Origin: an uncultured Candidatus Saccharibacteria bacterium
GTDB lineage: Bacteria > Patescibacteriota > Minisyncoccia > Phycocordibacterales > UBA9973
Direction of reading: 5' to 3'
NCBI GenBank assembly: GCA_964522195.1
Contig: CAZFSV010000002.1
Coordinates: forward strand, 36,743-100,742
DNA: 64,000 nucleotides
In this document: one piece after another, positions 20,268 to 56,161 of the stretch
How positions within the stretch are numbered: the stretch's first letter is position 1
Layout: each line of letters opens with the position of its first letter
Translations under genes and position numbers: made by a program
The notes under the pieces: model-generated
Told to the model about the DNA's origin: nothing
The model's database searches: none
What the model saw: the letters and a program-made list of their open reading frames with translations, nothing else

Positions 20268-20786
20268 TTAATTTCCAAAATTTTCAAAAATTGATTTTTG
20301 AGTTTCAAGGTCTATTTTGTTTGTAGTTAGGATTATCATCTCTGTGGTTAATCCTAAATCTTTTTTAATATTTTCAAATAAATATTCGTATGGTAGGGGA
20401 GAAATCCAGACGGAATTCTTAAGACATACAAATCCTGCTTTTTTTAATAAATAGCGTAATGATTCACGTTCGTTTTTTCTGGTTTCAGGAAGATCGAGAA
20501 TTATCATTCTCCAATATCCATCCCAAGTTGTATTAACTAGAGTATTTTCATTATCTAATTTAAGACTATAAAGTTTCTTTTTTCCTTCTTTAGTAAGGCT
20601 TATGTAGTCTTGATTACCTGAGTCGTGAATTCGAGCAAAACCACTGTTTACGAGGTTTTTGAGGCTTCTGGAGAGGGCATATTTCTCTTTCTTGTCTTCT
20701 TTGTCTTTCAAAGACTTTATAGAGGTAGCCCTTTTTTCAGCTAATTTTTTAAGGATTTTTTTGGAAATATCTTGATTGCTTGACAT
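20268..20786 (-). CDS. PaaX-family winged-helix transcriptional regulator
   Basis: C-terminal WDGYWRMIILDLPETR...LRYLLKKAGFVCLKNSVWISP fits the PaaX_C pattern (WDG.W....LPE..R..LR..L...GFG.L..GVW..P). N-terminal wHTH. Confidence 0.55.
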   Translation of the reverse strand: MSSNQDISKKILKKLAEKRATSIKSLKDKEDKKEKYALSRSLKNLVNSGFARIHDSGNQDYISLTKEGKKKLYSLKLDNENTLVNTTWDGYWRMIILDLPETRKNERESLRYLLKKAGFVCLKNSVWISPLPYEYLFENIKKDLGLTTEMIILTTNKIDLETQKSIFENFGN

Positions 20787-20823: not shown

Positions 20824-20839
20824 TTTCGCGGTCGCGAAA
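20824..20839. promoter_or_regulatory. GC-rich inverted repeat TTTCGCG-GT-CGCGAAA in the divergent PaaX-like/dnaK intergenic region
   Basis: Perfect 7-2-7 palindrome standing out against AT-rich flanks. Does not match CIRCE or HAIR consensus. Confidence 0.45.
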
Positions 20840-20897: not shown

Positions 20898-22775
20898 ATG
20901 TCAAAAATAATAGGTATAGATTTAGGTACAACAAATAGTGCAGTCGCTATAATCGAAGGAGGAAATCCAAAGATTGTAGAAAATATTGAAGGAGCTCGAA
21001 CTACTCCATCTATAGTTTCTATTGCAAAAAATGGAGATAGACTAGTAGGACTTTTAGCAAAACGCCAAGCCGTAACAAATCCAGAAAATACAATTTATGG
21101 TATTAAAAGATTTATGGGCCACAATTTTGAAGATCCAGAAGTTCAAAAAGATTTAAAAAATTCTTCTTTTAAAATTCAAAAAGGAACTGATGGTGGAGTA
21201 GAAGTTATGATTGGAGATAAATGGATGCGTCCTGAAGAAGTTTCTGCAATGATTTTAGCTAAAATAAAAGCAGATGTTGAAGCAAAAACAGGAGAGAAAA
21301 TAACTGAAGCCGTGATAACAGTCCCTGCTTATTTTAACGATGCTCAAAGAAAAGCTACAAAAGACGCTGGAGTTATTGCAGGGCTTGATGTAAAAAGAAT
21401 TATCAATGAACCGACAGCCGCAGCTCTTGCTTATGGATTTAATAAAAAGAAAAATGAAAAAATTGTAGTATATGATTTTGGAGGAGGAACTTTCGATGTG
21501 TCAGTTTTGGAAATTGGAGATGATGTTATCGAAGTAAAGTCTACTGATGGAGATTCTCATTTAGGAGGACGTGATATCGATCACAAGATTATTGCTTGGA
21601 TTGCAGAAGAATTTAAAAAGACTTCTGGTGTTGATGTTCGTAATGATAAATTAGCACTACAAAGATTAGATGAAGCTTCTGAAAAAGCAAAAATAGAACT
21701 TTCAACAGCAGTAGAAACAGAAATAAATATTCCTTTTATAACTTCAACAGCTGAAGGCCCTCAACACTTATTACTTAAAATGACTCGCGCTCAATTAGAA
21801 TCTATTGCTGACGAATATATAACTCGTTCTATAGAAATCACTAAAAAGGCTTTAGCTGCTTCAGGATTTTCTATGAATGATATTCACGAAATCATAATGG
21901 TTGGAGGTCAAACTCGTATGCCAAAGATAGTAGAAGAAGTGAAGAAAGTTTTCGGCAAAACTCCAAATTTATCTATTAATCCAGATGAAGTTGTGGCTCT
22001 TGGTGCTGCAGTTCAAGCTGGGGTATTAGCAGGAGATGTGCGTGATGTGTTATTGCTTGATGTTATACCACTTTCTTTAGGAATAGAAACTTTAGGTGGA
22101 GTGGCTACAAAATTAGTAGAGAGAAATACAACAATTCCGGCCTCCAAATCTCAAATTTTCTCAACAGCAGCAGACAATCAAACTTCAGTAGAAATTCATA
22201 TAGTGCAAGGTGAACGACCTATGGCAAGCGACAATAAATCCCTAGGACGATTTATTTTAGATGGAGTTCCACCTGCACCTCGTGGTATTCCTCAAGTTGA
22301 AGTTACTTTTGATGTTGATGCTAATGGAATTCTAAATGTAAAAGCTATGGAAAAAGCTTCAGGTAAAACTCAATCTATTCGTATTGAGGCAAGTTCAGGA
22401 CTTAAAGATGAAGATATTAAGAAAATGCAAGCTGATGCAGAACTTAACGCTGAAGAAGATAAAAAGAAGAAAGAATTAGTTGATGTGAAAAATACCGCAG
22501 AAATGACTATGTACACAGCTGAAAAATCTTTAAAAGAGAATGAAGCGAAATTAGACGAAGCTTTGAAAACAGAATTAAATACAAAAATTACAAATTTGAA
22601 AAATGTAAAAGATGGTTCTGATATGGAAGCTATTAAAAAATCAACTGAAGAATTATCAAATGAAATGTCTAAAATAGGAGAAGCTTTAGCGAAAGCAGGA
22701 GAGACTCCAAATACTGAAACTAAAACTGCTGAAGAGCAACCTGTAGAAGTAGAAAACGAAGAGAAAAAAGAATAA
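20898..22775 (+). CDS. dnaK: Molecular chaperone DnaK (Hsp70)
   Basis: [18 protein letters not shown] and the full Hsp70 architecture with acidic C-terminus. Confidence 0.97.
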
Positions 22776-22793
22776 TTTGTAAAATTTTATAAA

Positions 22794-22830
22794 AGCCCGA
22801 TTTTTGAAAAAAATCGGGCTTTTAGTTTTT
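22794..22830 (+). terminator. Intrinsic terminator after dnaK
   Basis: 12-bp stem agcccgattttt/aaaaatcgggct followed by a T-run. Confidence 0.65.
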
Positions 22831-22854
22831 CTTTTCTATTGCTATAATTAAATT

Positions 22855-25110
22855 ATGCAAATACCTGGATTACCAGAAAATAGAGATTTAACATATATCG
22901 GTTATACAACTTACCGAGGTCAAAACCAACTTTTTGGTATTAAAAGAAAAGACCGAAGGCAACATATGTATATTTTAGGAAAATCTGGAACAGGTAAGTC
23001 TGTGCTTATGTCTAATATGATGATGCAAAATATCATCAATGGTGAAGGAGTTTGTGTTGTGGATCCTCACGGAGAATTAGTCGAAGGAGTACTTCAATCT
23101 ATTCCCCCTCATCGAATGAAAGATGTAGTTTATTTTAATCCAGCTGATACTGATTATCATATTGGTTTTAATGTTTTAGAATTAGTTGATTCAAAATACA
23201 AGCATCTAGTTGCTTCTGGTCTTATGGGAATTTTTACTAAAATTTGGGCCAATGCTTGGTCTGCCCGAATGGAATATATTTTAAATAATACTATTTTAGC
23301 CCTGCTTGATACTCCAGGCACGACTCTACTAGGTATTCAAAGAATGCTTGTCGATAAAGATTATCGTCAGAAGATTATTTCAAATTTAAAAGATCCTGTG
23401 ATTAAGGCTTTTTGGATTCACGAATATGAATCTTGGCAAGATAAATTTAGAAATGAAGCCATAGCACCTATTCAAAACAAAGTAGGTCAATTCCTTTCTA
23501 CTTCAGTTATTCGTAATATTGTAGGTCAATCAAAAAGTACAATAAATATTTTTGATTTAATGAATGAAGGTAAGATTTTCTTGGTTAATGTATCTAAAGG
23601 TAGAATAGGTGAAGACAACTCTAAATTACTCGGAGGTATGATAATTACTAAAATTCAACTTGCTGCTATGGAGCGTGTGCGTATTCCCGAAGAAGAGCGT
23701 AAAGACTTTTATTTATATGTGGACGAATTTCAAAATTTCGTAACAGATTCCTTTGCTTCAATTTTATCTGAAGCTCGTAAATACAGACTTTCTTTAACCG
23801 TGGCTCATCAATATACTGCTCAACTAGTAACAAAAGAGTCTTCTGCTATGCGAGATTCTATTTTTGGTAACGTTGGAACTATGATCGTTTTTCGAGTTGG
23901 TGCTGATGATGCTGATTTCTTAGAGAAAGAATTTGCTCCTGAATTTACTCCTGAAGATATTGTGAATTTGCCTAACTATAAAATTTATTTGAAATTAATG
24001 ATAGACGGTATTACTTCTCGTCCTTTTTCTTCAAAAACAATTCCACCCTTAGTTAAAGGTGGAGATAAAAGCATAGAAGAAGAAGTTATTAAATCTTCTC
24101 GAGAACTTTATTGTCGAACAAAAGAAGACGTCGAAGATGAAATCAATAAATGGAGTGGTATGACACTTGGAGATGATAATTCTAAAGATGGAAATAATAA
24201 AAATAATAATTTTACTGGTGAAAAATTCGAAACAGTTTGCTCTAATTGTGGTAATTTAACTTCTGTACCTTTCAAACCTGAACCTGGTCGGGCTGTTTAT
24301 TGCAAAGATTGTATTATTAAAATTAAAGCAGGAGAAATAAAACCTATTAAAGTTTCTCCTGACCAATTAAAAAAAGACGAAGCTAGATTTTTTAAACCTT
24401 TAGCTGATTTGGGTATAGAATTTGTTTCTACTGAAAATAATATTAAAACTAAAGACACAGAAAGAAAGACAGAAAATAAATCAAATATTGTAGAAAAAAA
24501 AGATTTTTTTAGAAATAAAAAAGATTTTATTTCTAAACCAAAAATTAATAATAATTTTCGAGAAAAACCTAGTGCTTTTACTAAAATAGGTTTAGGTTTA
24601 AAGGAATTACTAGATAAAGCTTTGCATAATGAAACTGATGAAACTGTATCTTTAGAAGAAGTTAAAACCAATAATTTGATTGTACCAAAAGATGAGAAGA
24701 ATATTTCTTTAGAAGATTTAAAATCTAAAAATAATCTAGAAAAAAATAACAACAAAGATAAATCTGCGAATGAAAAAACAATGAGTAGTTTTAAAAGTTT
24801 AATTTTAGAAAAAGAAAAAGAAATAGTAAAAGAAGAAGTCAAAATTTCAACACCAGAAATTAAAATAGAAGAATTTAATAAAGAAGAAAAAGAGGAAGTT
24901 GTTTTAGAGAATAAATCAGAAATAAAAGAACCTATCCACAATACTCCACAGAGCGATGTAGGCGAGGAAAGTCATTTTGATAAATATTATAAAGCTGATT
25001 TTGAGAATTCTAAAAAAGAAAATAAATCTGGTACAGAGCCAAATTTTTCAAAAGAAAATATTCCCGAAGTTCCCGAAGAAGTCCTTAAAAAAATTTTAGA
25101 TCAAAAATAA
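22855..25110 (+). CDS. TraD/VirD4/HerA-FtsK-superfamily P-loop ATPase (type IV coupling protein-like) with C-terminal zinc ribbon and K/E-rich disordered tail
   Basis: RQHMYILGKSGTGKSVLMSN...VCVVDPHGEL (Walker A plus HGE) and FYLYVDEFQNF (Walker B). CSNCGNLTSVPFKPEPGRAVYCKDC zinc ribbon at about 24238-24315. About 260 aa low-complexity K/E/N tail. No TM helices. Confidence 0.55.
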   Translation: MQIPGLPENRDLTYIGYTTYRGQNQLFGIKRKDRRQHMYILGKSGTGKSVLMSNMMMQNIINGEGVCVVDPHGELVEGVLQSIPPHRMKDVVYFNPADTDYHIGFNVLELVDSKYKHLVASGLMGIFTKIWANAWSARMEYILNNTILALLDTPGTTLLGIQRMLVDKDYRQKIISNLKDPVIKAFWIHEYESWQDKFRNEAIAPIQNKVGQFLSTSVIRNIVGQSKSTINIFDLMNEGKIFLVNVSKGRIGEDNSKLLGGMIITKIQLAAMERVRIPEEERKDFYLYVDEFQNFVTDSFASILSEARKYRLSLTVAHQYTAQLVTKESSAMRDSIFGNVGTMIVFRVGADDADFLEKEFAPEFTPEDIVNLPNYKIYLKLMIDGITSRPFSSKTIPPLVKGGDKSIEEEVIKSSRELYCRTKEDVEDEINKWSGMTLGDDNSKDGNNKNNNFTGEKFETVCSNCGNLTSVPFKPEPGRAVYCKDCIIKIKAGEIKPIKVSPDQLKKDEARFFKPLADLGIEFVSTENNIKTKDTERKTENKSNIVEKKDFFRNKKDFISKPKINNNFREKPSAFTKIGLGLKELLDKALHNETDETVSLEEVKTNNLIVPKDEKNISLEDLKSKNNLEKNNNKDKSANEKTMSSFKSLILEKEKEIVKEEVKISTPEIKIEEFNKEEKEEVVLENKSEIKEPIHNTPQSDVGEESHFDKYYKADFENSKKENKSGTEPNFSKENIPEVPEEVLKKILDQK

Positions 25111-25188: not shown

Positions 25189-25728
25189 ATGTCATACAAT
25201 TTTTCAAATTTTAAATTAGAAGTTAAGAAAGCAGAGGATTTTTTAAGTAAGGTTTATCGTGAACTTAACATCGGACGGGCTTCTCCTATGGTACTAGATA
25301 GTATTTCTATTGAAGCTTATGGAGATTATCAACCTTTAAAGAATGTCGCTTCTGTTAATGTGGAAGACCCAAAAACTCTGCGTATCGCACCTTGGGACAA
25401 AACTCATATTAAAGCCATAGAAAAGGCTATTATGACTGCTGATTTAGGACTTTCAACAGCAGTAGATGATTCTGGAATGCGGGTTATTTTTCCTCAATTA
25501 ACTACAGAAAATAGACAAAAGTTGGTAAAAGTTTTGAAAGAAAAATTAGAAGACGCTCGTATTACCGTAAGACAAGTTCGCCAAGATGCTATGGATGATA
25601 TAACAGGAAGTGAAATGACTGAGGACGAAATAAAAAGAGCAAAAGATGAATTGCAAAAAATTGTAGATGAAGTAAATGCTAATCTAGAGAAAATCTTTAA
25701 AAATAAAGAAAATGAAGTAATGAATTAA
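25189..25728 (+). CDS. frr: Ribosome recycling factor
   Basis: Characteristic RRF length and motifs (LNIGRASP...IRIAPWD...ENRQKLVK). Confidence 0.9.
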   Translation: MSYNFSNFKLEVKKAEDFLSKVYRELNIGRASPMVLDSISIEAYGDYQPLKNVASVNVEDPKTLRIAPWDKTHIKAIEKAIMTADLGLSTAVDDSGMRVIFPQLTTENRQKLVKVLKEKLEDARITVRQVRQDAMDDITGSEMTEDEIKRAKDELQKIVDEVNANLEKIFKNKENEVMN

Positions 25729-41879: not shown

Positions 41880-44800
41880 ATGAAAAAATATTTATCAGGT
41901 TTTCTTGTTTTTAGTTTAGTTTTCGGAGCTCTAATTTTACCAATCAACCAAACAAATGCTGCTCCAGTAACAATTTTCTCAGAGAGTTTTGGTGATAATA
42001 ACTTAGGTAATGATATGGACCCAATATCATGGAATAGTTGGTCCGATGGAGGAAACAGTGGCGATGATGCAGAAATAAGAGTTGGTTCAAATGGTAATAA
42101 CAATGATTCTGTAAGTCCTAATGGTGGTAGATTTGCTATGGCATTAGGCCAAGATGGTTATTTTTGTAAAACTATAGATACTACAGGATATAATAATGTA
42201 AATCTTTCTTATTATTGGAGAGGTGATAGTAATGCGAATAATAATGATTTTGGATTAGTTCAAATTAAAGAAGCTGGTAATGGAATCTTTTGTAGTGATA
42301 ATTCAGGATGGACTACTTTAAAAAGTCATGCATTAGATATTGATAATAATTGGTCTACTCAATCTGCATTTACAGATAACATATTAAACAATAAAAATTT
42401 ATTACTTCGTTTTAAGGTTGATGCAAATCAAAATACTGAAGATTTTCGTGTTGATGGTATTTTGATAAGTGGAGATTTAATACCTGTTGCTCCAACTACA
42501 GCTAAAGTTACTATTGTAAAATACATCAATGGAGTACCAGCTACACCAGAAAATACTAATAATGCTTCTTTCCCTATGACTGCAACATGGAATGCTACTA
42601 ATATAGGTTCTGGCACAGGTAACTATAATCTAAGTTCTACTGGTTTCAATAACCCAAATCCATATCAAGCTACTACTGCAGATATGACTACAGGAGCTGA
42701 TTATAGTACTTATGAAAATACTGGAACTGCATGTGTCTCACCAATGATGTATGCTCTAACAGGCTATACAACAGGAGATACTTTAAATGATGCTACTTTG
42801 GCTGTTCCATCCCTAACCACTCCAAGTTTTACAAATCTACAAACTGATAAATTCGTAATCGTTTGGAATAAGACTTGTGTTGATTTACCTACTCACTTAA
42901 CTCCAGCTGACAATTCTGTTCGAACTACAGCTGAGCAAACTCTGATAGATTGGTCTGATGTTGTAAGTTGGGCAAGTCCTGTAACTTATATGTATCAATC
43001 AGCTCTTTCAATGGCTACAAATATGGATGGATCATTTACAAGTCCTGCATACACTTCAGGAGCTTTAACTAGTTCAGAAATACCAACTCCAGGTACTCCA
43101 GAAGGTATTTACTACTGGCATGTCAAAGCTACTGATTCTGCAAACAACACAAGTGGATGGACTATTCCTTGGAAAATAACTATCAATAATACAGGAAGTC
43201 TAACTGTAAATAAAAATGTTCTAAAACCAGACGGTGTTACCGAAGTATCAGATAATCAATCTTTCTCTGTAATGCTAAACGGTGGAAATACTCAAAACGT
43301 AAGTGAAAATATTTCATATACTTATACAAATTTAACTCCAGGAACTTACACAGTTACAGAAGGAGTAAATGGTAATTATGAATTTGTTTCTTTCTCTAAT
43401 GACTCTGACTCTGAAACAGCAGGCGCTCAAGTAGAAGTAGTTGCAAATCAAAATACAGTTGTAACAATAACTAACAAACAAAAAAAAGGAACTCTTACAA
43501 TAAATAAAATCGTTACAAATCCTAACGATGGAGAAGCTATCGCTACAGATTTCTCTTTCCAAGTTAACGGAGGCGAAGCTATTGCTTTTACAGATAGTGA
43601 TGACGAAAATAATTTAACAGGTCAAAATATTATTTCTGTAGATCCTGGAACTTATACAATTACAGAAGTTATCCCAGAAGGAGCTTATGCTATATCATAT
43701 AGTGCTAACTGTACTAATGCAGTATTAACAAGCAACAGTAACATAGTTTGTACAATCACAAATAGTGATATTCCTGCAGGTAAAGGTGCTATAACTGTAG
43801 TTAAAAATTTACCTAATGATAACGGAGGAGATTTCGTATTAAGTGATTTTCCTCTTAATGTATCAGGTACAACAACAGAAGAAACACCTATGTCTGTAAG
43901 TGAATCAGTAGCTAGTGGTATTTCTGAATTTTTTACACCAGGAACTTATGTTGTTTCCGAAGATAATCCTAATGAATTAAGTGGTTATACAACAACTATC
44001 AGTTGTACAGATGGAGAAAATACACTAACAAATGGTAATATTACAGTTTCAGATCAACAAGCTTGGGTTTGTACTATTACTAATGATGACGAACCTGCAA
44101 AATTAACTATAATAAAAAAAGTGGTTAATAATGCTTGGATGGGTACTTTAGAAGAAACTTTCAATTTTAACTTAATAGGAGAAGACACTGAAGAAGAGAT
44201 TGCAATCACAACAGAAGCTCCTGAAATGATGGAAGAAGAATCAAAAATCTACGAACAAGATTATCAAGCTATGGGTGAATCAGAAGTTATTACTTTGAAT
44301 TCCGGAAGTTATACTTTAACTGAAGATTTATTACCTGAATGGAATTTAACAGATATTTCTTGTTCTGTTAAAACAGAAGAAACAGAAAATGGTGTATATC
44401 TTTCATTGCAAAATGGTGAAGATGTTACTTGTACTTTTGTAAATACTCGTAAAACAGGAACTTTGGTAATAGAAAAAATTGTAGTAAATGATGACGGTAA
44501 AGAACTTACTGTTTCTGATTTCGCAGGATTTACTATAAACAATAGTGAACCAATTCCTTTTGAATCAGATGAAGACGAAATGTCAGGAGGTAAGACTGTT
44601 ATTTTAGAATTAGGTACTTATCAAATTTCTGAACCAGTAACAGAAGGATATTACAAAGTAACTGAAAATTGTGAAGCTGTAAACATAACAGAAGGTACAA
44701 TAAAAACTTGTAAATTTAGAAATGATGATGTTGGATTCTTTGTTCACTCAGGTGGATCTGGATCTAGTGGTGGTCAAGTTTTAGGAGCTTCTACAGAAAC

Positions 44801-45176
44801 ACCAGCCCCATCACCAACAACTCCTACAGAAACTCCAAAAGGTGAGGTTTTAGGAGCAACTTCATGTAGTACAATTTACTTAAACGACTTCCTGTACTTT
44901 GGAAAGAAAAATAATCCTGAACAAGTTAAGTTGTTACAAACTTTCTTGAATGAAGAATTAGGATTAAAATTAGTAGTGGATGGAAAATTTGGTAGAACTA
45001 CAAGAAATGCAGTTATAGCTTTCCAAGAAAAATACGGAACTGATGTCTTAACTCCTTGGGCTCCGTTTGGACTAAAGAGTGGAAAGGGAACAGGTAACGT
45101 TTACAAGACTACAAAATGGAAAATCAACATGATTAAATGTGCTGATTTGAAATTAGAAGTTCCTCAACTTCCATAA
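41880..45176 (+). CDS. Large secreted surface protein: N-terminal lectin/galactose-binding-like domain, five prealbumin-fold (SpaA/Cna-B-like) repeats, C-terminal peptidoglycan-binding (PG_binding_1) domain
   Basis: Signal peptide. Repeats carry the ...GTYT(V/I)TE... pattern about every 110-120 aa. C-terminal LLQTFLNEELGLKLVVDGKFGRTTRNAVIAFQEKYG is PG_binding_1-like. Confidence 0.65.
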   Translation: MKKYLSGFLVFSLVFGALILPINQTNAAPVTIFSESFGDNNLGNDMDPISWNSWSDGGNSGDDAEIRVGSNGNNNDSVSPNGGRFAMALGQDGYFCKTIDTTGYNNVNLSYYWRGDSNANNNDFGLVQIKEAGNGIFCSDNSGWTTLKSHALDIDNNWSTQSAFTDNILNNKNLLLRFKVDANQNTEDFRVDGILISGDLIPVAPTTAKVTIVKYINGVPATPENTNNASFPMTATWNATNIGSGTGNYNLSSTGFNNPNPYQATTADMTTGADYSTYENTGTACVSPMMYALTGYTTGDTLNDATLAVPSLTTPSFTNLQTDKFVIVWNKTCVDLPTHLTPADNSVRTTAEQTLIDWSDVVSWASPVTYMYQSALSMATNMDGSFTSPAYTSGALTSSEIPTPGTPEGIYYWHVKATDSANNTSGWTIPWKITINNTGSLTVNKNVLKPDGVTEVSDNQSFSVMLNGGNTQNVSENISYTYTNLTPGTYTVTEGVNGNYEFVSFSNDSDSETAGAQVEVVANQNTVVTITNKQKKGTLTINKIVTNPNDGEAIATDFSFQVNGGEAIAFTDSDDENNLTGQNIISVDPGTYTITEVIPEGAYAISYSANCTNAVLTSNSNIVCTITNSDIPAGKGAITVVKNLPNDNGGDFVLSDFPLNVSGTTTEETPMSVSESVASGISEFFTPGTYVVSEDNPNELSGYTTTISCTDGENTLTNGNITVSDQQAWVCTITNDDEPAKLTIIKKVVNNAWMGTLEETFNFNLIGEDTEEEIAITTEAPEMMEEESKIYEQDYQAMGESEVITLNSGSYTLTEDLLPEWNLTDISCSVKTEETENGVYLSLQNGEDVTCTFVNTRKTGTLVIEKIVVNDDGKELTVSDFAGFTINNSEPIPFESDEDEMSGGKTVILELGTYQISEPVTEGYYKVTENCEAVNITEGTIKTCKFRNDDVGFFVHSGGSGSSGGQVLGASTETPAPSPTTPTETPKGEVLGATSCSTIYLNDFLYFGKKNNPEQVKLLQTFLNEELGLKLVVDGKFGRTTRNAVIAFQEKYGTDVLTPWAPFGLKSGKGTGNVYKTTKWKINMIKCADLKLEVPQLP

Positions 45177-47845: not shown

Positions 47846-48289
47846 ATGAAAGTTATATTCTTAAAAGATGTCCCTAGGGTTGGTAGAAAAAATGAAGTGA
47901 AAGAAGTAAATGACGGTTATGCTTTAAATTTTTTATTGCCTAATAAATTAGCTATAAAAGGTAGCCCTAAAGCTATTAAGCAACTAGAATTAAAACAAAA
48001 AGGTATTATAGTAGAAAAACAAGTTCAAAAAGATTTGCTTATTAAAAACCTTAAAGAATTAGAAGGTAAGATTATAATCTTTAAAGAAAAAGCAAACGAA
48101 AAAGGTCATCTATTTAAGTCAATTCATTCTAAAGAAATTGTTTCTGAATTAAAAAAACAACATCATATAGACATAGATGAATCTATAATTAAATTAGATA
48201 AACCAATTAAAGAAACAGGTAAAGTAGAAGTCCCAATAGAAATAAATGAAATCAAATCCTTCTTGTCTCTAGAAATACAAAATAACTAA
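47846..48289 (+). CDS. rplI: 50S ribosomal protein L9
   Basis: MKVIFLKDVPRVGRKNEVKEVNDGYALNFLLPNKLA signature. Confidence 0.9.
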   Translation: MKVIFLKDVPRVGRKNEVKEVNDGYALNFLLPNKLAIKGSPKAIKQLELKQKGIIVEKQVQKDLLIKNLKELEGKIIIFKEKANEKGHLFKSIHSKEIVSELKKQHHIDIDESIIKLDKPIKETGKVEVPIEINEIKSFLSLEIQNN

Positions 48290-48294
48290 CATAT

Positions 48295-48326
48295 AAAAAA
48301 CCTCCTTTTTACGGGAGGTTTTTTAT
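48295..48326. terminator. Bidirectional terminator between rplI and rpmA
   Basis: aaaaaacctcc-loop-ggaggtttttt with A and T tracts on both sides. Confidence 0.65.
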
Positions 48327-48331
48327 ATTAT

Positions 48332-48604
48332 TTAATTTACGTTTACAACTTTTTTAACAACAGTTTTGTTATTAAATGAAGTTTTTCTTTTTGATCCGAA
48401 TTTAACAACTCCTTCTTTTAAAGCAAATAATGTATGGTCTTTGCCTATACCTACGTTATTTCCAGCTAAGATTACAGTTCCTCTTTGGCGAACAATAATG
48501 TCTCCAGATTTTGCTCTTTGACCATCAGCAAGTTTAGTACCTAGGTACTTTGGATTCGAATCTCTTAAGTTTTTGGCGGTTCCGCCGGCTTTCCTATGTG
48601 CCAT
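48332..48604 (-). CDS. rpmA: 50S ribosomal protein L27
   Basis: [23 protein letters not shown]-terminal signature. Confidence 0.95.
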
Positions 48605-48660
48605 ATTATTTTTTTAAATTTAATGTTAAAATTAATGTATAAATAACTATAAACCATTTT

Positions 48661-49041
48661 ATGGAAAAAATCAAGTATTTTTTAGAAAGTGAAAAAGGTA
48701 AAAATATATTAATAATTTTAGTTATTATTTTAGTTGGTTTAGGGTCTTTTGAGCTAGGTAGAATGTCCGTAAAAGAGGTTAAAAATGACTCAAATATAGG
48801 GTTTTCAAGTCAAGAAGCTAATGTTATTAAATCAACTCAAAACGAGCTTTTAGAGCAAAAATACGAGTTTAAAGGGGTAGATTTGAATGGTAAAGAGTAT
48901 TTTGCTTCAAAAAGAGGAAGTAAGTACTATCCATTTGGTTGTTCTGCTGGAAAAAGTATAAAAGAAGAAAATAGAATATATTTCTCTAATGAAGAAGAAG
49001 CAATAAAAGCCGGCTATTCTAAATCATCTTCTTGTAATTAA
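48661..49041 (+). CDS. Membrane-anchored protein with degenerate Ada-type zinc-binding-like C-terminal domain
   Basis: C-terminus YYPFGCSAGKSIKEENRIYFSNEEEAIKAGYSKSSSC follows the Ada_Zn_binding pattern (C...EN.v.F.s.eeA..aGyrpC) but retains only 2 of 4 Cys ligands. Confidence 0.35.
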   Translation: MEKIKYFLESEKGKNILIILVIILVGLGSFELGRMSVKEVKNDSNIGFSSQEANVIKSTQNELLEQKYEFKGVDLNGKEYFASKRGSKYYPFGCSAGKSIKEENRIYFSNEEEAIKAGYSKSSSCN

Positions 49042-49049
49042 TTAAACAA

Positions 49050-49084
49050 AAAACTACAAAGGGTTACCCTTTGTAGTTTTTTTA
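49050..49084. terminator. Bidirectional terminator (ctacaaagggt-t-accctttgtag)
   Basis: 11-bp stem flanked by aaaa and tttt, between convergent genes. Confidence 0.6.
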
Positions 49085-49094
49085 TAAAATAGAT

Positions 49095-50288
49095 TTAATG
49101 ACTGTGCTTATGATGTTTTAAATTTTCTTCTTCTTTTTTGAGGATTTCTTCGTTCACTTCTCGCTCATCTTTTTTCATTAAAAGTAGGGTAGCGATATAA
49201 GTAGTTATAGGTACTGCAAGGATCAAACTAATACTACCAACTAAAATACGAACTATTTCTGTGGCAAAAATTTCACGATTTAAAATTAATTCTATGTTTG
49301 TGGAATTTGAAAAAAGAAGCAAGAGTGGGAGAGAAGCACCAGCATAAGCAATAGCTAAAGTATCAACTAAAGCTCCTATATGTTCCCGACCCATACGCAT
49401 TGCCCTTTTAAAAATTTTCTTTCTTTTTATGTGTGGAGCTATATGATGCAACTCTTCAACAAAGATAGCTTGATTAATAGCTATATCATAAAGCACTCCT
49501 AAAAGACCTATCATAATTCCACCTATCAATATTCCAACTAAATCAATTTCTCCTGCAAAATTTCTATTCAAGAAGACAGCTTCTTCGTTATCGTAACCAG
49601 TAAATTTTCCATATTCAACCGAAAAATAAGCAAGTGTTCCAGTAAAAATAATAGTTGTAATCATTCCTAAAACTGCTGAAGTTGTAGTTTTGTTTACGCC
49701 ATGAGTAATATATGATCCAGCAATAATTATAAAAGAAGATACAATAATACTAATCAAAACAGGGGAATAGCCAGCTAAAATTCCAGGAAGGAGCGCATAT
49801 AAAATTAATATAAAACTTAGAGCAAGACTTATAAGTCCTCGCAAGCCTTGAACTCCACCTATTAGAACAGTCAACACTATGAAAATAAAAAGTAAAATAT
49901 AAATTATATTTAATCTGTACGGCTCCATCATCGCAAAAAATTCTTCTCCTTCGCGAGTTGTATGATTGAGGTAAAAAATATCTCCAACTTGAAGGGGAGT
50001 GAAATCATTGTTAAAGGTTACTACCCTGTCTTTATTATTTCCCTCTAGGATTATTGCTCTGATTTCTTGATTTTTATTTTCTATATTAAAAACTGGAATT
50101 ATATCTGATTCTTTAAAGTTCATATCTAGGACTTTTGCTTTTACAATTTCTTGAGTCTCCTCTATTGGGGTAGGTGAATCCTCTCTCTCATTTATTTGAG
50201 CGACAACCTTATTATTAGAAATAAAAAAAATACTTATTAAAAGTAGGGAAAGAGTAATTATATTTAATTTGTTTTTAAATTTAAACAT
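49095..50288 (-). CDS. YibE/F-family integral membrane protein
   Basis: N-terminal signal plus extracytoplasmic domain, followed by about 8 TM helices in a YibE/F-like arrangement. Confidence 0.45.
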   Translation of the reverse strand: MFKFKNKLNIITLSLLLISIFFISNNKVVAQINEREDSPTPIEETQEIVKAKVLDMNFKESDIIPVFNIENKNQEIRAIILEGNNKDRVVTFNNDFTPLQVGDIFYLNHTTREGEEFFAMMEPYRLNIIYILLFIFIVLTVLIGGVQGLRGLISLALSFILILYALLPGILAGYSPVLISIIVSSFIIIAGSYITHGVNKTTTSAVLGMITTIIFTGTLAYFSVEYGKFTGYDNEEAVFLNRNFAGEIDLVGILIGGIMIGLLGVLYDIAINQAIFVEELHHIAPHIKRKKIFKRAMRMGREHIGALVDTLAIAYAGASLPLLLLFSNSTNIELILNREIFATEIVRILVGSISLILAVPITTYIATLLLMKKDEREVNEEILKKEEENLKHHKHSH

Positions 50289-54481: not shown

Positions 54482-55072
54482 CTACGTGTTATTTTTATAA
54501 TATTTATTTTTAAATTTATCAAATAAATTTGTTAAATCATTTTCAATTTCAATTTTGCAAACAAAACAATCTTTTAACTTGGGTGTAATACCTTTTTTAA
54601 GAACACTTAGCGAAAGATCAAATTTATATTCACTTGTATGAACTCCATTTACTATTCTTTTAGTTAATTTTTCCCAATTTATATCTTGTTTTCTTGCAAT
54701 AAGGACATATAAATCATTTGGCGTAAAATCAAGAAAAATAAAAGCATCGTAATTTCTATTTTTAAAAAATTTTTCATGCTGAAATGTATCAGCCGACGCA
54801 CCTATTGTGGCTGTTTTAACTTCAATCTTTATGTCATCTACAACAATATCCCAATATTTATCATTATTAGTTATTGCTTTTTCATATTCAACTTTATATC
54901 TTCTTTTTGTAAAAATTTCATTTAAAAGCAACTCTCCCACTTCCCCAGTGTCATCATTATTTAATTTTTTTATATTCTCATATTTACCACCTTTTGCCCA
55001 ATTATTTTTCTTTTGTTTTCTATTTTCAGGAAGTGATATTAATATATTTTTTATAATTTCTTCTATTTTCAT
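54482..55072 (-). CDS. Putative type II restriction endonuclease (PD-(D/E)xK fold)
   Basis: WDIVVDDIKIEVKTA gives a D...(D/E)xK catalytic pattern. Immediately downstream of, and co-oriented with, a DNA MTase (4-nt gap). Confidence 0.5.
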   Translation of the reverse strand: MKIEEIIKNILISLPENRKQKKNNWAKGGKYENIKKLNNDDTGEVGELLLNEIFTKRRYKVEYEKAITNNDKYWDIVVDDIKIEVKTATIGASADTFQHEKFFKNRNYDAFIFLDFTPNDLYVLIARKQDINWEKLTKRIVNGVHTSEYKFDLSLSVLKKGITPKLKDCFVCKIEIENDLTNLFDKFKNKYYKNNT

Positions 55073-55075
55073 ATT

Positions 55076-56161
55076 TTAAAATAATTTATGATTAAAATCA
55101 TAGTAACCATTTTTAATTAAAACATCTTCAATTAAACTTGTACGTAAGTTTATTGCAGAGTTACTTGAATAAAAAGCTGTTTTTTCCCAATCATGATTTA
55201 ATAATAAATTCTTAATTTTTTCTTTATCTTTTAATATTACAATTCCATATCCTCTACGTTGAGGTAATTCTTCAAAAGAAAGGTATGGTTTTATGTCTTT
55301 ATAGGTTGTAGATGGCAAATAAATATCACATTTATAAAGCATATTTTTATTTCTTGTATTAGAAGGCAATCCTCCATCTGATAAAGAATAAATTTTTATA
55401 TACTGTAAACATGTTTTTCTTTCAGGGATCTTAATATTTTCTGTTTTTATTTTGGTCCACACTTGAAATATAGTATGAATTTTAATTTCCTCACCACTTG
55501 GATATATAAAAGAATTAGGAGGAATAATTTCTGAATATGCTAACTTGTAACCAAAAACTCTTTTTTTAGGAGATCCTTTACCGTCACTATTAAATAGTTG
55601 TGGCAATATAAAAGCAACAACATCAGCAAATTTGTAAGAATGATTAATGAATTGTAAAGCTAAATGACCTCTTAAGCCAAATGGAGGATTTCCCACAACA
55701 AAATATTTAAGATTTTTAGATGGAATCCATTTTAAATAATCATCTTTAATAATAGTTTTTGCTTTTGGGTCTATGTCTATGCCTATAGAGTTTTCTGGTA
55801 AAAATTTCAAAAAACTACCATTTCCAGCTGAAGGTTCAATATAAACATAATCTTTATCATCTATACCTAAATCAGTAATAATTTTTTTAAATTTTTTAAT
55901 ACAACCTAATGCAATATTTTCTTTAGTATAATATTGATCTTTTTCTTTTATAGAAAAATTATCTTCATATTTTACATTTAATAATCTTAAAAAATCTAAT
56001 TGATAATTTTTAGGTACTTTGTTTTGTTGGACCCATCTTTTTACAGTTCCTTTATGTATGCCAAAATGATTTGCTAATCTATCAAGAGTAAAAACATTTA
56101 AAGATTGCTCAAATAGCTGATTAATTTCAAAATTATTTATATTTGTGTTTGTATTTTTCAT
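55076..56161 (-). CDS. N6-adenine DNA methyltransferase, gamma class (M.TaqI-like), with N-terminal HTH extension
   Basis: Motif X DQYYT, motif I EPSAGNGSF, IGIDIDP, motif IV NPPF in M.TaqI order. N-terminal FTLDRLANHFGIHKGTVKRWV HTH. C-terminal target-recognition region. Confidence 0.75.
   Translation of the reverse strand: MKNTNTNINNFEINQLFEQSLNVFTLDRLANHFGIHKGTVKRWVQQNKVPKNYQLDFLRLLNVKYEDNFSIKEKDQYYTKENIALGCIKKFKKIITDLGIDDKDYVYIEPSAGNGSFLKFLPENSIGIDIDPKAKTIIKDDYLKWIPSKNLKYFVVGNPPFGLRGHLALQFINHSYKFADVVAFILPQLFNSDGKGSPKKRVFGYKLAYSEIIPPNSFIYPSGEEIKIHTIFQVWTKIKTENIKIPERKTCLQYIKIYSLSDGGLPSNTRNKNMLYKCDIYLPSTTYKDIKPYLSFEELPQRRGYGIVILKDKEKIKNLLLNHDWEKTAFYSSNSAINLRTSLIEDVLIKNGYYDFNHKLF

What the first reader, a model, noticed from the sequence alone, without database searches (positions are those of the whole stretch)
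22855..25110. Orphan TraD/VirD4/HerA-like P-loop ATPase with embedded zinc ribbon and 260-aa K/E-rich tail, between dnaK and frr
The N-terminal 400 aa carry RxHMYILGKSGTGKS...VVDPHGE and YVDEFQNF motifs typical of type IV coupling proteins and HerA/FtsK DNA translocases. There are no TM helices and no other T4SS, conjugation or relaxase genes in 64 kb.

The C-terminal half adds a CxxCG...VPFKP...VYCxxC zinc ribbon and an extremely low-complexity Lys/Glu/Asn tail. The tail generates a long antisense pseudo-ORF. The gene is embedded among core genes with its own terminator and promoter, suggesting a conserved cellular role (DNA uptake or segregation, or interaction with a host cell) rather than a plasmid remnant.
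Basis: partly seen in the sequence, partly recalled or inferred. Interest (0 to 1): 0.5.

Follow-up and report, generated by a model that had tools for sequence, protein, structure and literature searches.

The report
Domesticated conjugation-type motor ATPase in Patescibacteria
This gene encodes the soluble motor half of a conjugation-type "coupling" ATPase that ultra-small Patescibacteria have turned into a core gene as conserved as DnaK, with an added zinc finger and a flexible docking tail; what it moves is unknown, but it is a candidate for macromolecule traffic in these parasites.

Summary
ORF 22855-25110 (+) encodes 751 aa between dnaK and frr. It has a TrwB/VirD4-like P-loop ATPase (aa 1-436), a CxxC-x17-CxxC zinc finger (C462/465/483/486), a roughly 250-aa K/E/N-rich tail and no TM helix. 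The antisense ORF is a composition artefact.

It is not an orphan. Thousands of Patescibacteria clusters share at least 81% identity over 500 aa. Orthologues in other Parcubacteria lineages keep 57-73%, which matches DnaK from the same loci.

The AlphaFold model (pLDDT 90.6) hits TrwB best. The catalytic residues are invariant.

In 47 of 83 related loci a roughly 450-aa membrane protein (TMP, PF26449) lies directly upstream. TMP is fused to the ATPase in long paralogues and is homologous to the N-terminal domain of an actinobacterial conjugative T4CP. The gene is therefore the motor half of a split T4CP.

The ancestral context is secD-secF-(sigma-r4/HARE-HTH)-TMP-ATPase. In the window's clade the gene sits inside the grpE-dnaK-dnaJ array.

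The tail carries conserved helical islands and a C-terminal peptide, EVPE[DE]VL[RK]K[IV]LE.

No T4SS genes lie nearby. The function is inferred, not shown: a domesticated hexameric translocase or coupling hub, probably handling nucleic acid. I class it as a new variant of a known kind.

The parts
22855..25110 (+). Complete gene: 751-aa T4CP-like ATPase, zinc finger and disordered tail
   Evidence: ORF listing. A 100% identical protein, P0002, is found on a 117-kb NCBI contig.
22855..24162 (+). ATPase module, aa 1-436: an N-terminal beta-hairpin, a RecA-like nucleotide-binding domain and an inserted helical domain
   Evidence: Pfam TrwB_AAD_bind covers aa 32-349. phmmer against PDB hits TrwB at 2.4e-7. 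The AF2 model has pLDDT 90.6. Foldseek ranks TrwB first (E 5.5e-13, TM 0.5-0.66), followed by HerA, Cag-beta, DotL and VirB4.
22978..23001 (+). Walker A motif GKSGTGKS, aa 42-49
   Evidence: G42, G45, G47 and K48 are invariant in alignments A1, A2 and A3.
23191..23568 (+). All-alpha insertion between Walker A and Walker B, about aa 113-238, matching in position the all-alpha domain of TrwB
   Evidence: DSSP on the model gives helices 113-130, 137-152, 160-176, 181-191, 196-214, 217-223 and 232-238. The Pfam TrwB_AAD_bind match spans this region. The equivalence to the TrwB all-alpha domain is inferred from position. It was not superposed separately.
23707..23727 (+). Walker B motif FYLYVDE, aa 285-291
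   Evidence: D290 and E291 are invariant. They align to the TrwB segment LFIDE.
23776..23811 (+). RKYR...AHQ segment, aa 308-319: candidate arginine finger (R308) and sensor glutamine (Q319)
   Evidence: R308, K309 and Q319 are invariant. They align to TrwB GRKAG...GLQ. The assignment to TrwB R375 and Q386 rests on my recollection of TrwB numbering.
24220..24339 (+). C4 treble-clef zinc finger, aa 456-495; ligands C462, C465, C483 and C486
   Evidence: PF23477 at 2e-12 and TIGR04272 at 3.3e-14, both above their cut-offs. In the model the finger shows two beta-hairpins and a helix, with block-mean pLDDT of 87-95 for aa 461-500. The finger is present in most orthologues across lineages. It has marginal similarity to GATA fingers (E 0.04-0.4).
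24340..25071 (+). Disordered K/E/N-rich tether, aa 496-739, with conserved short helical islands: DExxFxKPLADLGIEF, NxxLxExLxKxL, PISLxxLK and DRxASxExMxxLKxxI
   Evidence: Composition. Conservation profile from 40 orthologue tails of 147-349 aa. The full-length AF2 model has pLDDT below 50 except for helices 502-518, 581-590 and 640-658.
25072..25107 (+). Conserved C-terminal peptide EVPEEVLKKILDQK; clade consensus KEVPE[DE]VL[RK]K[IV]LE
   Evidence: The peptide is present at the C-terminus of 18 of the 20 sampled P-series orthologues and of the orthologues in L001-L015 and L019, despite hypervariable preceding sequence. The model shows helix 741-749 with pLDDT about 78.
22790..22824 (+). Intrinsic terminator of dnaK: 16-bp stem followed by a T-run, directly upstream of the gene
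   Evidence: Terminator scan and sequence. An equivalent hairpin lies upstream of the orthologues in L001, L003, L005 and L008-L010.
22840..22848 (+). Extended -10 promoter-like element TGCTATAAT, ending 6 nt before the ATG, which implies a leaderless or near-leaderless mRNA
   Evidence: Sequence. A TGnTAnAAT element lies 7-11 nt before the ATG in L005 and L008-L012, with similar -10-like elements in L001 and L003. It matches a consensus only. The transcription start is inferred.
24297..24941 (-). Antisense 214-aa ORF: a composition artefact, not a gene
   Evidence: It is S/L/F-rich (53%) and lies wholly within the hypervariable tail.

Best explanation
The gene encodes the soluble motor subunit of a split, domesticated type IV coupling protein (T4CP, VirD4/TrwB lineage).

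What the data show:
- The ATPase module has the TrwB-like fold and every catalytic residue is intact.
- It is inherited as a core Patescibacteria gene and is under purifying selection as strong as that on DnaK.
- In most lineages its membrane half (TMP, PF26449) is a separate gene immediately upstream, or is fused to it. TMP is homologous to the N-terminal domain of a conjugative T4CP from an actinobacterial plasmid.

What I infer:
- The protein assembles into a ring, as TrwB does. In this clade the ring may be mixed with the paralogue T4CP2.
- The ring docks at the membrane through TMP and uses ATP to hand over or pump a polymer.
- The GATA-like C4 zinc finger contacts the substrate, most likely nucleic acid.
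- The long disordered tail, with its amphipathic helical islands and conserved C-terminal peptide, works as a flexible tether that recruits partners or adaptors. The C-terminal tail of F-plasmid TraD recruits TraM in this way.
- The channel it serves could be the Patescibacteria VirB4-type T4SS encoded elsewhere, or another machine. This is left open.

In the window's clade the gene has moved from its ancestral secDF-(sigma-r4/HARE-HTH)-TMP operon into the grpE-dnaK-dnaJ array. There it keeps its own promoter.
For: Identity and fold:
- Pfam and NCBIfam profile hits.
- TrwB is the best sequence match among solved structures and the best structural match to a model of pLDDT 90.6.
- K48, D290, E291, R308 and Q319 are invariant.

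Core-gene status:
- All 8000 scored candidates were significant, and the best 120 share at least 81% identity over 500 aa.
- 23,348 clusters at 50% identity match it.
- Orthologues at 57-89% identity occur in genomes labelled Nomura-, Colwell-, Wolfe-, Lipton-, Giovannoni-, Doudna-, Uhr-, Moranii-, Magasanik-, Buchanan- and Kerfeldbacteria.
- Identity tracks DnaK: 84 against 80-88%, 60 against 63%, 68 against 63%. Over the same loci CysS falls to 40%, RseP to 31-38% and MreB to 28-43%.

Split T4CP:
- TMP lies at position -1 in 47 of 83 loci.
- TMP matches the N-terminal 400 aa of the long fused paralogues.
- A TMP HMM hits the N-terminal domain of an 812-aa T4CP on an Embleya plasmid at E 1.3e-9. 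That gene lies in a PrgI, ATPase, T4CP, replication-relaxation protein, NlpC/P60 cluster.
- phrog_5156 covers both TMP and the ATPase.
- In an NJ tree the target-type orthologues form one clade nested among the fused forms.

Zinc finger and tail:
- The finger is present in most orthologues, including those next to TMP.
- The tail has conserved islands and C-terminal peptides.

DNA-related context:
- A protein with Sigma70_r4 and HARE-HTH domains lies at position -2 in 26 loci.

Literature:
- VirD4-type homologues occur in 2,918 of 3,035 Patescibacteria genomes, and only 148 of 5,713 lie near virB4. The authors say that exaptation cannot be ruled out (PMC12102498).
Against: - There is no experimental evidence for any activity, oligomeric state or substrate.
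- In the window and in 16 loci of its clade, neither TMP nor the sigma-r4/HARE-HTH gene lies within 10 kb. Membrane docking in this lineage is therefore unproven.
- The neighbours are protein-handling genes (secDF, dnaK, dnaJ, grpE), which fits a protein substrate at least as well as nucleic acid.
- The similarity of the finger to GATA fingers is marginal, and the function of PF23477 is unknown beyond zinc binding (PMC12704099).
- A t4cp homologue in Ca. Southlakia epibionticum was reported as non-essential (PMC12102498). That sits oddly with DnaK-level conservation. I did not test whether that gene is an orthologue of this one.
Confidence: 0.55

Rival explanations
1. It is simply the working coupling protein of the Patescibacteria VirB4-type T4SS, which is encoded elsewhere (near dnaA/dnaN in Paceibacteria). 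It would recruit protein effectors, possibly the neighbouring Cys-rich zinc-finger proteins kept unfolded by DnaK/DnaJ/GrpE, for delivery into the host cell.
For: - T4CP genes are often encoded away from virB4, and the Patescibacteria T4SS is of the monoderm MPF-FATA type, as is the closest plasmid relative (PMC12102498).
- In close relatives the gene and its paralogue T4CP2 are interleaved with 1-6 Cys-rich paralogues and the Hsp70 genes.
- The Cys-rich proteins carry two copies of the same CxxC-x17-CxxC finger.
- The Southlakia T4SS cluster lacks a recognisable coupling protein and relaxase, and was proposed to export proteins (PMC10633639).
Against: - T4CP homologues are found in more genomes (2,918) than VirB4 (2,417) out of 3,035.
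- The Southlakia homologue was not essential, although the T4SS was.
- DnaK-level conservation is, by my general knowledge, atypical of effector-recruiting T4CPs.
- The window itself has no Cys-rich genes.
Confidence: 0.2
2. It is an FtsK-like chromosomal DNA pump. A membrane-tethered hexamer clears or segregates DNA at the division septum, the zinc finger plays the role of the FtsK gamma domain, and the tail plays the role of the FtsK linker.
For: - T4CPs and FtsK belong to the same superfamily, which is established knowledge.
- The overall layout is comparable: a membrane anchor (TMP), a motor, a small putative DNA-binding module and a long disordered region.
- Housekeeping-level conservation and near-universal presence fit this role.
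Against: - Pfam FtsK_SpoIIIE scores 12.8 bits against a cut-off of 24, and only over the P-loop.
- TrwB, HerA, Cag-beta, DotL and VirB4 fill the 50 listed Foldseek matches, and no FtsK chain appears among them.
- FtsK is mentioned in papers on the saccharibacterium TM7x (search listing only). I did not check whether Paceibacteria have a canonical FtsK.
Confidence: 0.1
3. It is an Hsp70- or Sec-linked protein unfoldase or translocase with no nucleic-acid role. The ring would thread polypeptides, for example zinc-ribbon clients, in cooperation with DnaK/DnaJ/GrpE or SecDF.
For: - In the window's clade the gene sits inside grpE...dnaK-target...T4CP2-dnaJ. In distant lineages it lies directly downstream of secD-secF, and in L047 and L061 it lies within 5 genes of grpE-dnaK-dnaJ.
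Against: - The target has its own promoter-like element behind dnaK's terminator, and it lacks the palindrome found upstream of dnaK.
- Long-range gene order could be conserved without any functional link. I did not test this.
- The family descends from DNA-conjugation coupling proteins.
Confidence: 0.1
4. It is a remnant of an integrated conjugative element or plasmid, or the ATPase of a defence system such as a MADS mad8-like or HerA-type system.
For: - PADLOC mad8 hit at 2.5e-16 and HerA hits.
- Plasmid homologues at 27-39% identity, and a match to phrog_5156.
Against: - GC content is like the rest of the window and the neighbours are housekeeping genes.
- No other mad genes, NurA, Sir2, relaxase or integrase lie nearby.
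- Conservation equals that of DnaK across lineages and synteny is stable.
- The best plasmid hit shares only 39% identity.
Confidence: 0.02

Closest known systems
TrwB (plasmid R388) and the VirD4/TraD/Cag-beta/DotL type IV coupling proteins
   Same: - RecA-like nucleotide-binding domain with a helical insertion.
- Walker A and B, the candidate arginine finger and the sensor glutamine all align.
- TrwB is the best match by sequence and by fold.
   Different: - Only 14-16% identity in the structural alignments.
- No N-terminal TM domain in this polypeptide.
- No T4SS or relaxase genes nearby.
- Chromosomal core gene with DnaK-level conservation.
- Additional C4 zinc finger.
- NCBIfam TraD/VirD4 equivalog cut-offs are missed by a wide margin, for example 50 bits against 366.
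T4CPs of monoderm (MPF-FATA-type) conjugative elements, for example the 812-aa protein on Embleya sp. NBC_00896 plasmid unnamed2, and the CD1115 family
   Same: - 32% identity over 91% of the ATPase.
- The Embleya N-terminal domain is homologous to the TMP partner of this family, at E 1.3e-9 in collinear segments.
- NF045973 conju_CD1115 is among the best NCBIfam hits.
   Different: - The Embleya protein is a single polypeptide in a cluster with PrgI, an ATP-binding protein that I take to be VirB4-like from its position, a replication-relaxation protein and NlpC/P60.
- Here the protein is split and has left the T4SS context.
- It has also gained the finger and the tail.
F-plasmid TraD C-terminal tail binding TraM (works-like comparison only)
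   Same: A coupling ATPase carries a disordered C-terminal extension ending in a short conserved peptide that could dock a partner. The TraD-TraM knowledge is from memory.
   Different: - The peptide sequences are unrelated.
- The partner here is unknown.
- The tail also carries several internal helical islands.
CedB/CedD of Sulfolobales: chromosomal, conjugation-derived ATPases that import DNA
   Same: - An ATPase of the HerA/VirB4/T4CP superfamily domesticated for a cellular function.
- A similar layout of TM domain, N-terminal domain and ATPase, counting TMP (bioRxiv 10.1101/2024.09.27.615246).
- Weak NCBIfam CedD hit.
   Different: - The hit scores 25.5 bits against a cut-off of 600 and covers only the P-loop region.
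- CedD is VirB4-like, not T4CP-like.
- The target is not a member of that family.
HerA hexameric DNA translocase
   Same: - DUF87 scores above its Pfam cut-off, 34.7 against 23.2.
- HerA chains are among the top Foldseek hits at E about 6e-12.
   Different: - No NurA, Sir2 or other HerA partner nearby.
- TrwB ranks higher by both sequence and structure.
TIGR04272 / PF23477 CxxC-x17-CxxC fingers, for example the small zinc-binding proteins of Methanosarcina mazei
   Same: - The domain scores above both curated cut-offs.
- Two family members were shown to bind zinc by ICP-MS (PMC12704099).
   Different: - Here the finger is a single copy appended to a motor ATPase.
- No ligand other than zinc is known for the family.

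Membership tests
Type IV coupling protein (VirD4/TrwB/TraD) | RecA-like NBD with Walker A and B and a TrwB-like fold | tested here: met
   PF10412 scores 49.2 bits against a cut-off of 20.5, and PF02534 scores 28.6 against 20.1. phmmer hits TrwB at 2.4e-7. Foldseek ranks TrwB first at E 5.5e-13. The catalytic residues are invariant.
Type IV coupling protein (VirD4/TrwB/TraD) | All-alpha domain inserted in the NBD | tested here: met
   A helical block at aa 113-238 lies between Walker A and Walker B in the high-confidence model, and the TrwB_AAD_bind match spans it. I did not superpose the domain separately.
Type IV coupling protein (VirD4/TrwB/TraD) | N-terminal transmembrane anchor | tested here: not met
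   The highest 19-aa hydropathy mean is 1.03, and Walker A starts at aa 42. In relatives the anchor is a separate upstream protein or a fused domain. No such gene lies within 10 kb in the window's clade.
Type IV coupling protein (VirD4/TrwB/TraD) | Genetic linkage to a T4SS (virB4 and others) and/or a relaxase | tested here: not met
   No such gene was found in the 64-kb window. None appears among the recurrent neighbour families of 83 related loci. In the literature, 148 of 5,713 homologues lie near virB4. The rest of the genome was not available.
Type IV coupling protein (VirD4/TrwB/TraD) | Curated equivalog thresholds (NCBIfam TraD / VirD4-like models) | tested here: not met
   TIGR03743 scores 50.1 against 366, NF045973 scores 42.8 against 250, TIGR03754 scores 31 against 647 and TIGR02759 scores 28.9 against 521.
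Type IV coupling protein (VirD4/TrwB/TraD) | Hexameric ring and nucleic-acid-stimulated ATPase | not testable with these tools
   Only monomer prediction is offered. This needs a multimer model or biochemistry.
HerA / DUF87 helicases | HerA central domain together with a NurA, Sir2 or other partner gene | tested here: not met
   DUF87 scores above its cut-off, 34.7 against 23.2. No partner gene lies in the window. NCBIfam and PADLOC HerA hits cover only the P-loop region.
FtsK/SpoIIIE | FtsK motor domain above the Pfam cut-off, a gamma domain and a TM N-terminus | tested here: not met
   PF01580 scores 12.8 bits against 24, over aa 36-57 only. There is no TM segment. No FtsK chain appears among the 50 listed Foldseek hits.
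CxxC-x17-CxxC / zf_Tbcl_2 treble-clef finger (TIGR04272, PF23477) | Four Cys with 2-17-2 spacing, scoring above the curated cut-offs | tested here: met
   The ligands are C462, C465, C483 and C486. TIGR04272 scores 52.3 against 36 and PF23477 scores 47 against 27. In the model the block-mean pLDDT is 87-95 for aa 461-500.
CxxC-x17-CxxC / zf_Tbcl_2 treble-clef finger (TIGR04272, PF23477) | Zinc binding | not testable with these tools
   Zinc binding was shown by ICP-MS for two M. mazei members only (PMC12704099).
MADS defence system (mad8) | mad8-like ATPase together with the other mad genes | tested here: not met
   PADLOC mad8 hits at 2.5e-16, but no methyltransferase or other mad gene is adjacent. 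The neighbours are dnaK and frr.

The most novel reading that the evidence does not exclude
This ATPase could be the cytoplasmic motor of host-nucleic-acid acquisition in Patescibacteria. In this reading a conjugation coupling protein was re-purposed as a core housekeeping engine. It would sit at the membrane via TMP, possibly as a heterohexamer with T4CP2. It would grip incoming host RNA or DNA with its GATA-like finger and pull it through the T4SS or another channel. That would account for its near-universal presence and DnaK-level conservation in organisms that cannot make nucleotides. The mechanism of the host-RNA uptake reported for a cultivated representative is explicitly unresolved (bioRxiv 10.64898/2026.06.21.733656).
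Probability: 0.15. Interest if true: 0.9.

Novelty: new variant of a known kind. Interest (0 to 1): 0.55.

Why it matters
Patescibacteria make up a large share of bacterial diversity and depend on host cells. Their T4SS is essential in the one genetically tractable species, yet how they take up host macromolecules is unresolved.

A 2025 survey noted that VirD4-type homologues are almost universal in the phylum and rarely lie next to virB4. It left their role open.

This analysis adds the following points about one of these homologues:
- It is conserved at the level of DnaK.
- It is the motor half of a split coupling protein. Its membrane half can be identified as PF26449, either fused to it or adjacent.
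- It carries a conserved C4 finger and a tethered docking peptide.
- It sits in housekeeping operons (secDF or Hsp70).

If these points hold, the protein is a well-defined, testable candidate for a phylum-wide essential transport or DNA-handling function. It would also be a clear case of a mobile-element motor being fixed as a core cellular gene.

Tried and rejected
- Plasmid or ICE remnant: rejected. The neighbours are housekeeping genes, GC content is normal, conservation equals that of DnaK, and the best plasmid homologue shares only 39% identity.
- Defence ATPase (PADLOC mad8 or HerA): these are superfamily-level hits only, and no partner genes are present.
- FtsK membership: the Pfam score is below the cut-off.
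- CedD membership: 25.5 bits against a cut-off of 600.
- Search for TMP and for the sigma-r4/HARE-HTH protein in the window and in the 16 closest loci, using HMMs built here: nothing found.
- Homologue search with the Colwellbacteria TMP: 229 hits, and none of the 120 listed could be tied to the window's clade. Whether TMP exists in this lineage stays open.
- The local Pfam copy lacks PF26449, so I could not retrieve that family's name.
- A crude regex for FtsK-like motifs in the ORFs of all fetched loci and the window found nothing. This is uninformative, because each locus covers only about 20 kb.
- The zinc finger against PDB sequences gave only marginal GATA and LysW hits, plus spurious hits to designed WD-repeat proteins.
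- One Cys-rich neighbour against PDB, PADLOC, PHROGs and NCBIfam gave nothing useful.
- The dnaK operator palindrome is not present upstream of the target, so that site gives no evidence of shared regulation.
- The antisense ORF was rejected as a composition artefact.


Full report
**1. Observation.**

The ORF 22855-25110 (+) encodes 751 aa. It lies between dnaK (20898-22775) and frr (25189-25728). All quoted motifs are present.

Pfam gives TrwB_AAD_bind (4.9e-13, aa 32-349), zf_Tbcl_2 (2e-12, aa 457-487), DUF87, TraG-D_C and T4SS-DNA_transf, all above their gathering scores. NCBIfam gives TIGR04272 'CxxC-x17-CxxC' at 52.3 bits against a cut-off of 36.

There is no hydrophobic segment: the highest 19-aa Kyte-Doolittle mean is 1.03. 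The tail, aa 496-739, is 18% K, 16% E and 10% N. The 214-aa antisense ORF is 53% S/L/F, which is what the reverse complement of A-rich K/E codons produces.

The window is AT-rich, about 30% GC. It is filled with housekeeping genes: the atp operon, prfB, rsmI, mreB, holB, dnaK, frr, rseP, cysS, rplU, recR, dnaB, trpS, aspS, scpAB, mrdA, rplI, gltX and murG. I assigned these names by reading the translations. Pfam on ten unassigned ORFs found no T4SS, pilus or relaxase domain.

**2. Not an orphan.**

I searched with aa 1-500. Every one of the 8000 scored candidates was significant. The best 120 clusters (clustered at 90% identity) share 81-100% identity over essentially the whole 500 aa. All come from Patescibacteria/Paceibacterota MAGs. 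Sources name them 'CxxC-x17-CxxC domain-containing protein' or 'type IV secretion system DNA-binding domain-containing protein'.

An exhaustive HMMER search of representatives clustered at 50% identity found 23,348 clusters at E<=1e-3 and 6,525 at E<=1e-30.

A scan of one genome per species returned 80 loci with 57-89% identity over about 430 aa. The records are labelled Nomura-, Colwell-, Wolfe-, Lipton-, Giovannoni-, Doudna-, Uhr-, Moranii-, Magasanik-, Buchanan- and Kerfeldbacteria, among others.

Within the same loci the ATPase is as conserved as DnaK: 84 against 80-88%, 60 against 63%, and 68 against 63%. CysS drops to 40%, RseP to 31-38% and MreB to 28-43%. To my knowledge, conservation at this level is unusual for a T4CP homologue.

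**3. Fold and catalytic site.**

An AlphaFold2 model of aa 1-500, built on a 77-sequence alignment, has mean pLDDT 90.6 and pTM 0.82. Foldseek against the PDB ranks TrwB chains first (E 5.5e-13, TM 0.5-0.66). HerA, Cag-beta, DotL and VirB4 follow. phmmer against PDB sequences also finds TrwB.

A helical block at aa 113-238 sits between Walker A and Walker B, where TrwB has its all-alpha domain. K48, D290, E291, R308, K309 and Q319 are invariant in three alignments. They align with TrwB Walker A, Walker B, GRK and GLQ. The enzyme therefore looks catalytically competent.

**4. A split coupling protein.**

I compared gene order in 83 loci. In 47 of them a roughly 420-530-aa protein with N-terminal TM helices lies immediately upstream of the ATPase. 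I call this protein TMP.

Four results link TMP to the ATPase:
- phmmer with one TMP finds the N-terminal roughly 400 aa of the long (800-1100 aa) paralogues seen in the representative search. These are gene fusions.
- A TMP HMM hits, in collinear segments, the N-terminal domain of an 812-aa T4CP on an Embleya plasmid at E 1.3e-9. The C-terminal part of that protein is 32% identical to the target. It lies in a cluster of PrgI, an ATP-binding protein, the T4CP, a replication-relaxation protein and NlpC/P60.
- phrog_5156 covers TMP at profile positions 49-288 and the ATPase at positions 386-807.
- The protein database labels TMP as PF26449.

A rough NJ tree, without support values, puts all target-type orthologues in one clade nested among the fused forms. 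A second paralogue, T4CP2, forms a separate clade.

The family therefore descends from a membrane-anchored T4CP of monoderm conjugation systems. This agrees with the published placement of Patescibacteria VirB4 inside MPF-FATA (PMC12102498).

**5. Genomic contexts.**

In the more distant lineages the conserved array is secD, secF, a 361-aa protein with Sigma70_r4 and HARE-HTH domains, TMP, then the ATPase. Housekeeping genes follow: mnmA, alaS, efp and murC.

In several Paceibacteria loci the order is TMP, a small protein of 177-187 aa, then T4CP2, with the target either directly next to T4CP2 (L021, L022) or a few genes away (L029).

In the window's clade (at least 83% identity) the array is grpE, 0-4 Cys-rich genes, a PaaX_M-like gene on the minus strand, dnaK, the target, 0-3 Cys-rich genes, T4CP2, then dnaJ. 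The window keeps only the PaaX_M-like gene, dnaK and the target, followed by frr.

Neither TMP nor the sigma-r4/HARE-HTH gene lies within 10 kb in this clade. Whether they exist elsewhere in these genomes could not be tested.

**6. Zinc finger and tail.**

The C4 finger is present in most orthologues, including those that sit next to TMP. It is therefore an old feature of this orthologous group.

Its 2-17-2 spacing is that of GATA fingers, to which it has marginal sequence similarity (E 0.04-0.4). Family members from Methanosarcina bind zinc (PMC12704099).

The Cys-rich neighbours, about 560-590 aa, carry two copies of the same finger plus weak zf_Tbcl matches.

The tail varies from 147 to 349 aa among close orthologues. 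It retains four internal islands and the C-terminal peptide KEVPE[DE]VL[RK]K[IV]LE. Other lineages end instead in an amphipathic LxxLRxxLKExL motif or in [IV]KPG[EQ]x[IV]xF.

The full-length model is disordered in the tail, except for short helices at these islands. This is the signature of a flexible tether with docking motifs. From memory, it is comparable to the TraD tail that binds TraM.

**7. Expression signals.**

A 16-bp-stem terminator follows dnaK at 22790-22824. An extended -10 element, TGCTATAAT, ends 6 nt before the ATG. The same arrangement recurs upstream of orthologues. This suggests an own promoter and a leaderless mRNA.

The palindrome TTTCGCGGTCGCGAAA upstream of dnaK occurs once in the window and is absent upstream of the target.

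**8. Interpretation.**

Shown:
- Family, fold and intact active site.
- Core-gene conservation.
- The split and fusion relationship with TMP.
- Ancestry from conjugative T4CPs.
- The conserved finger and docking motifs.
- The absence of nearby T4SS genes.

Inferred:
- Ring assembly.
- Membrane docking.
- ATP-driven hand-over or translocation of a polymer.
- A role for the finger in contacting the substrate.
- A role for the tail in recruiting partners.

Nucleic acid is favoured as the substrate for three reasons: the conjugative ancestry, the GATA-like finger and the HTH-protein neighbour. The secDF and Hsp70 contexts keep a protein substrate plausible.

The literature shows that VirD4-type homologues occur in more Patescibacteria genomes than VirB4 does (2,918 against 2,417 of 3,035), and that they are rarely adjacent to virB4. 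The Southlakia T4SS cluster lacks a recognisable coupling protein (PMC10633639). The route of host-RNA uptake is unresolved.

**9. Verdict.**

The gene is a member of a very large family that has already been noticed but not characterised. What is new here:
- The DnaK-level conservation.
- The split-T4CP architecture with an identifiable membrane half.
- The conserved finger and tethered peptides.
- The two housekeeping operon contexts.

I rate it a new variant of a known kind, with moderate interest (0.55).

Noticed in passing
window 20824-20839 (intergenic, between 20268-20786 on the minus strand and dnaK at 20898): The perfect palindrome TTTCGCGGTCGCGAAA lies just downstream of a promoter-like TTGACA-18-TATACT. 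It sits between a divergent PaaX_M-like winged-helix gene and dnaK. It occurs once in the 64 kb (expected 0.04). It recurs with few changes upstream of dnaK in L001, L003, L005 and L007-L009. It may be the operator of a non-HrcA heat-shock repressor.
   Followed up: partly
L003 1874-7067 and 12144-17211; L001, L006-L008, L010, L012, L013, L016, L018, L025, L027, L029: Arrays of 1-6 paralogous Cys-rich proteins of about 550-600 aa flank dnaK, the target and T4CP2 in Paceibacteria. The one I checked has an N-terminal zf_Tbcl match and two CxxC-x17-CxxC fingers like the target's. It has no hit in NCBIfam, PADLOC or PHROGs and only a marginal LIM-domain match in the PDB. None is present in the window.
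   Followed up: partly
L003 17910-19358; L001, L005-L015, L018, L019, L021, L022, L025, L027, L029: A second, shorter T4CP-like paralogue (T4CP2) of 428-543 aa shares 36-47% identity with the target and has no zinc finger. It sits directly upstream of dnaJ in the window's clade and near TMP elsewhere. Adjacent paralogues suggest a possible mixed ring.
   Followed up: partly
L035 7417-8502 and 36 other loci: A conserved protein of about 360 aa combines a Sigma70 region-4 HTH with a HARE-HTH domain. It lies at position -2, just upstream of TMP, in 26 loci. It is a candidate DNA-binding adaptor for the system.
   Followed up: partly
window about 48000-50000: GC skew changes sign here, cumulative skew peaks, and the predominant gene strand switches from + to -. 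This is consistent with a replication terminus inside the window.
   Followed up: no
window 54482-56161 (minus strand): Two adjacent genes look like a restriction-modification pair. The 361-aa product contains a VVGNPPFG motif typical of N6-adenine DNA methyltransferases. The 196-aa neighbour has no assignment (read by eye only).
   Followed up: no
window 41880-45176: A 1098-aa protein that appears to have an N-terminal signal peptide (by eye) carries SpaA-type prealbumin-fold domains and a C-terminal peptidoglycan-binding domain. It may be a surface adhesin. A CAP-domain protein follows it.
   Followed up: partly
L031 141-2711; L079 11200-13695: Some genomes carry a fused TMP-ATPase paralogue (831-856 aa) on the same contig as the split TMP plus target-type pair, so up to three paralogue types coexist. 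One representative, P0208 (1210 aa), has two ATPase modules in tandem.
   Followed up: partly
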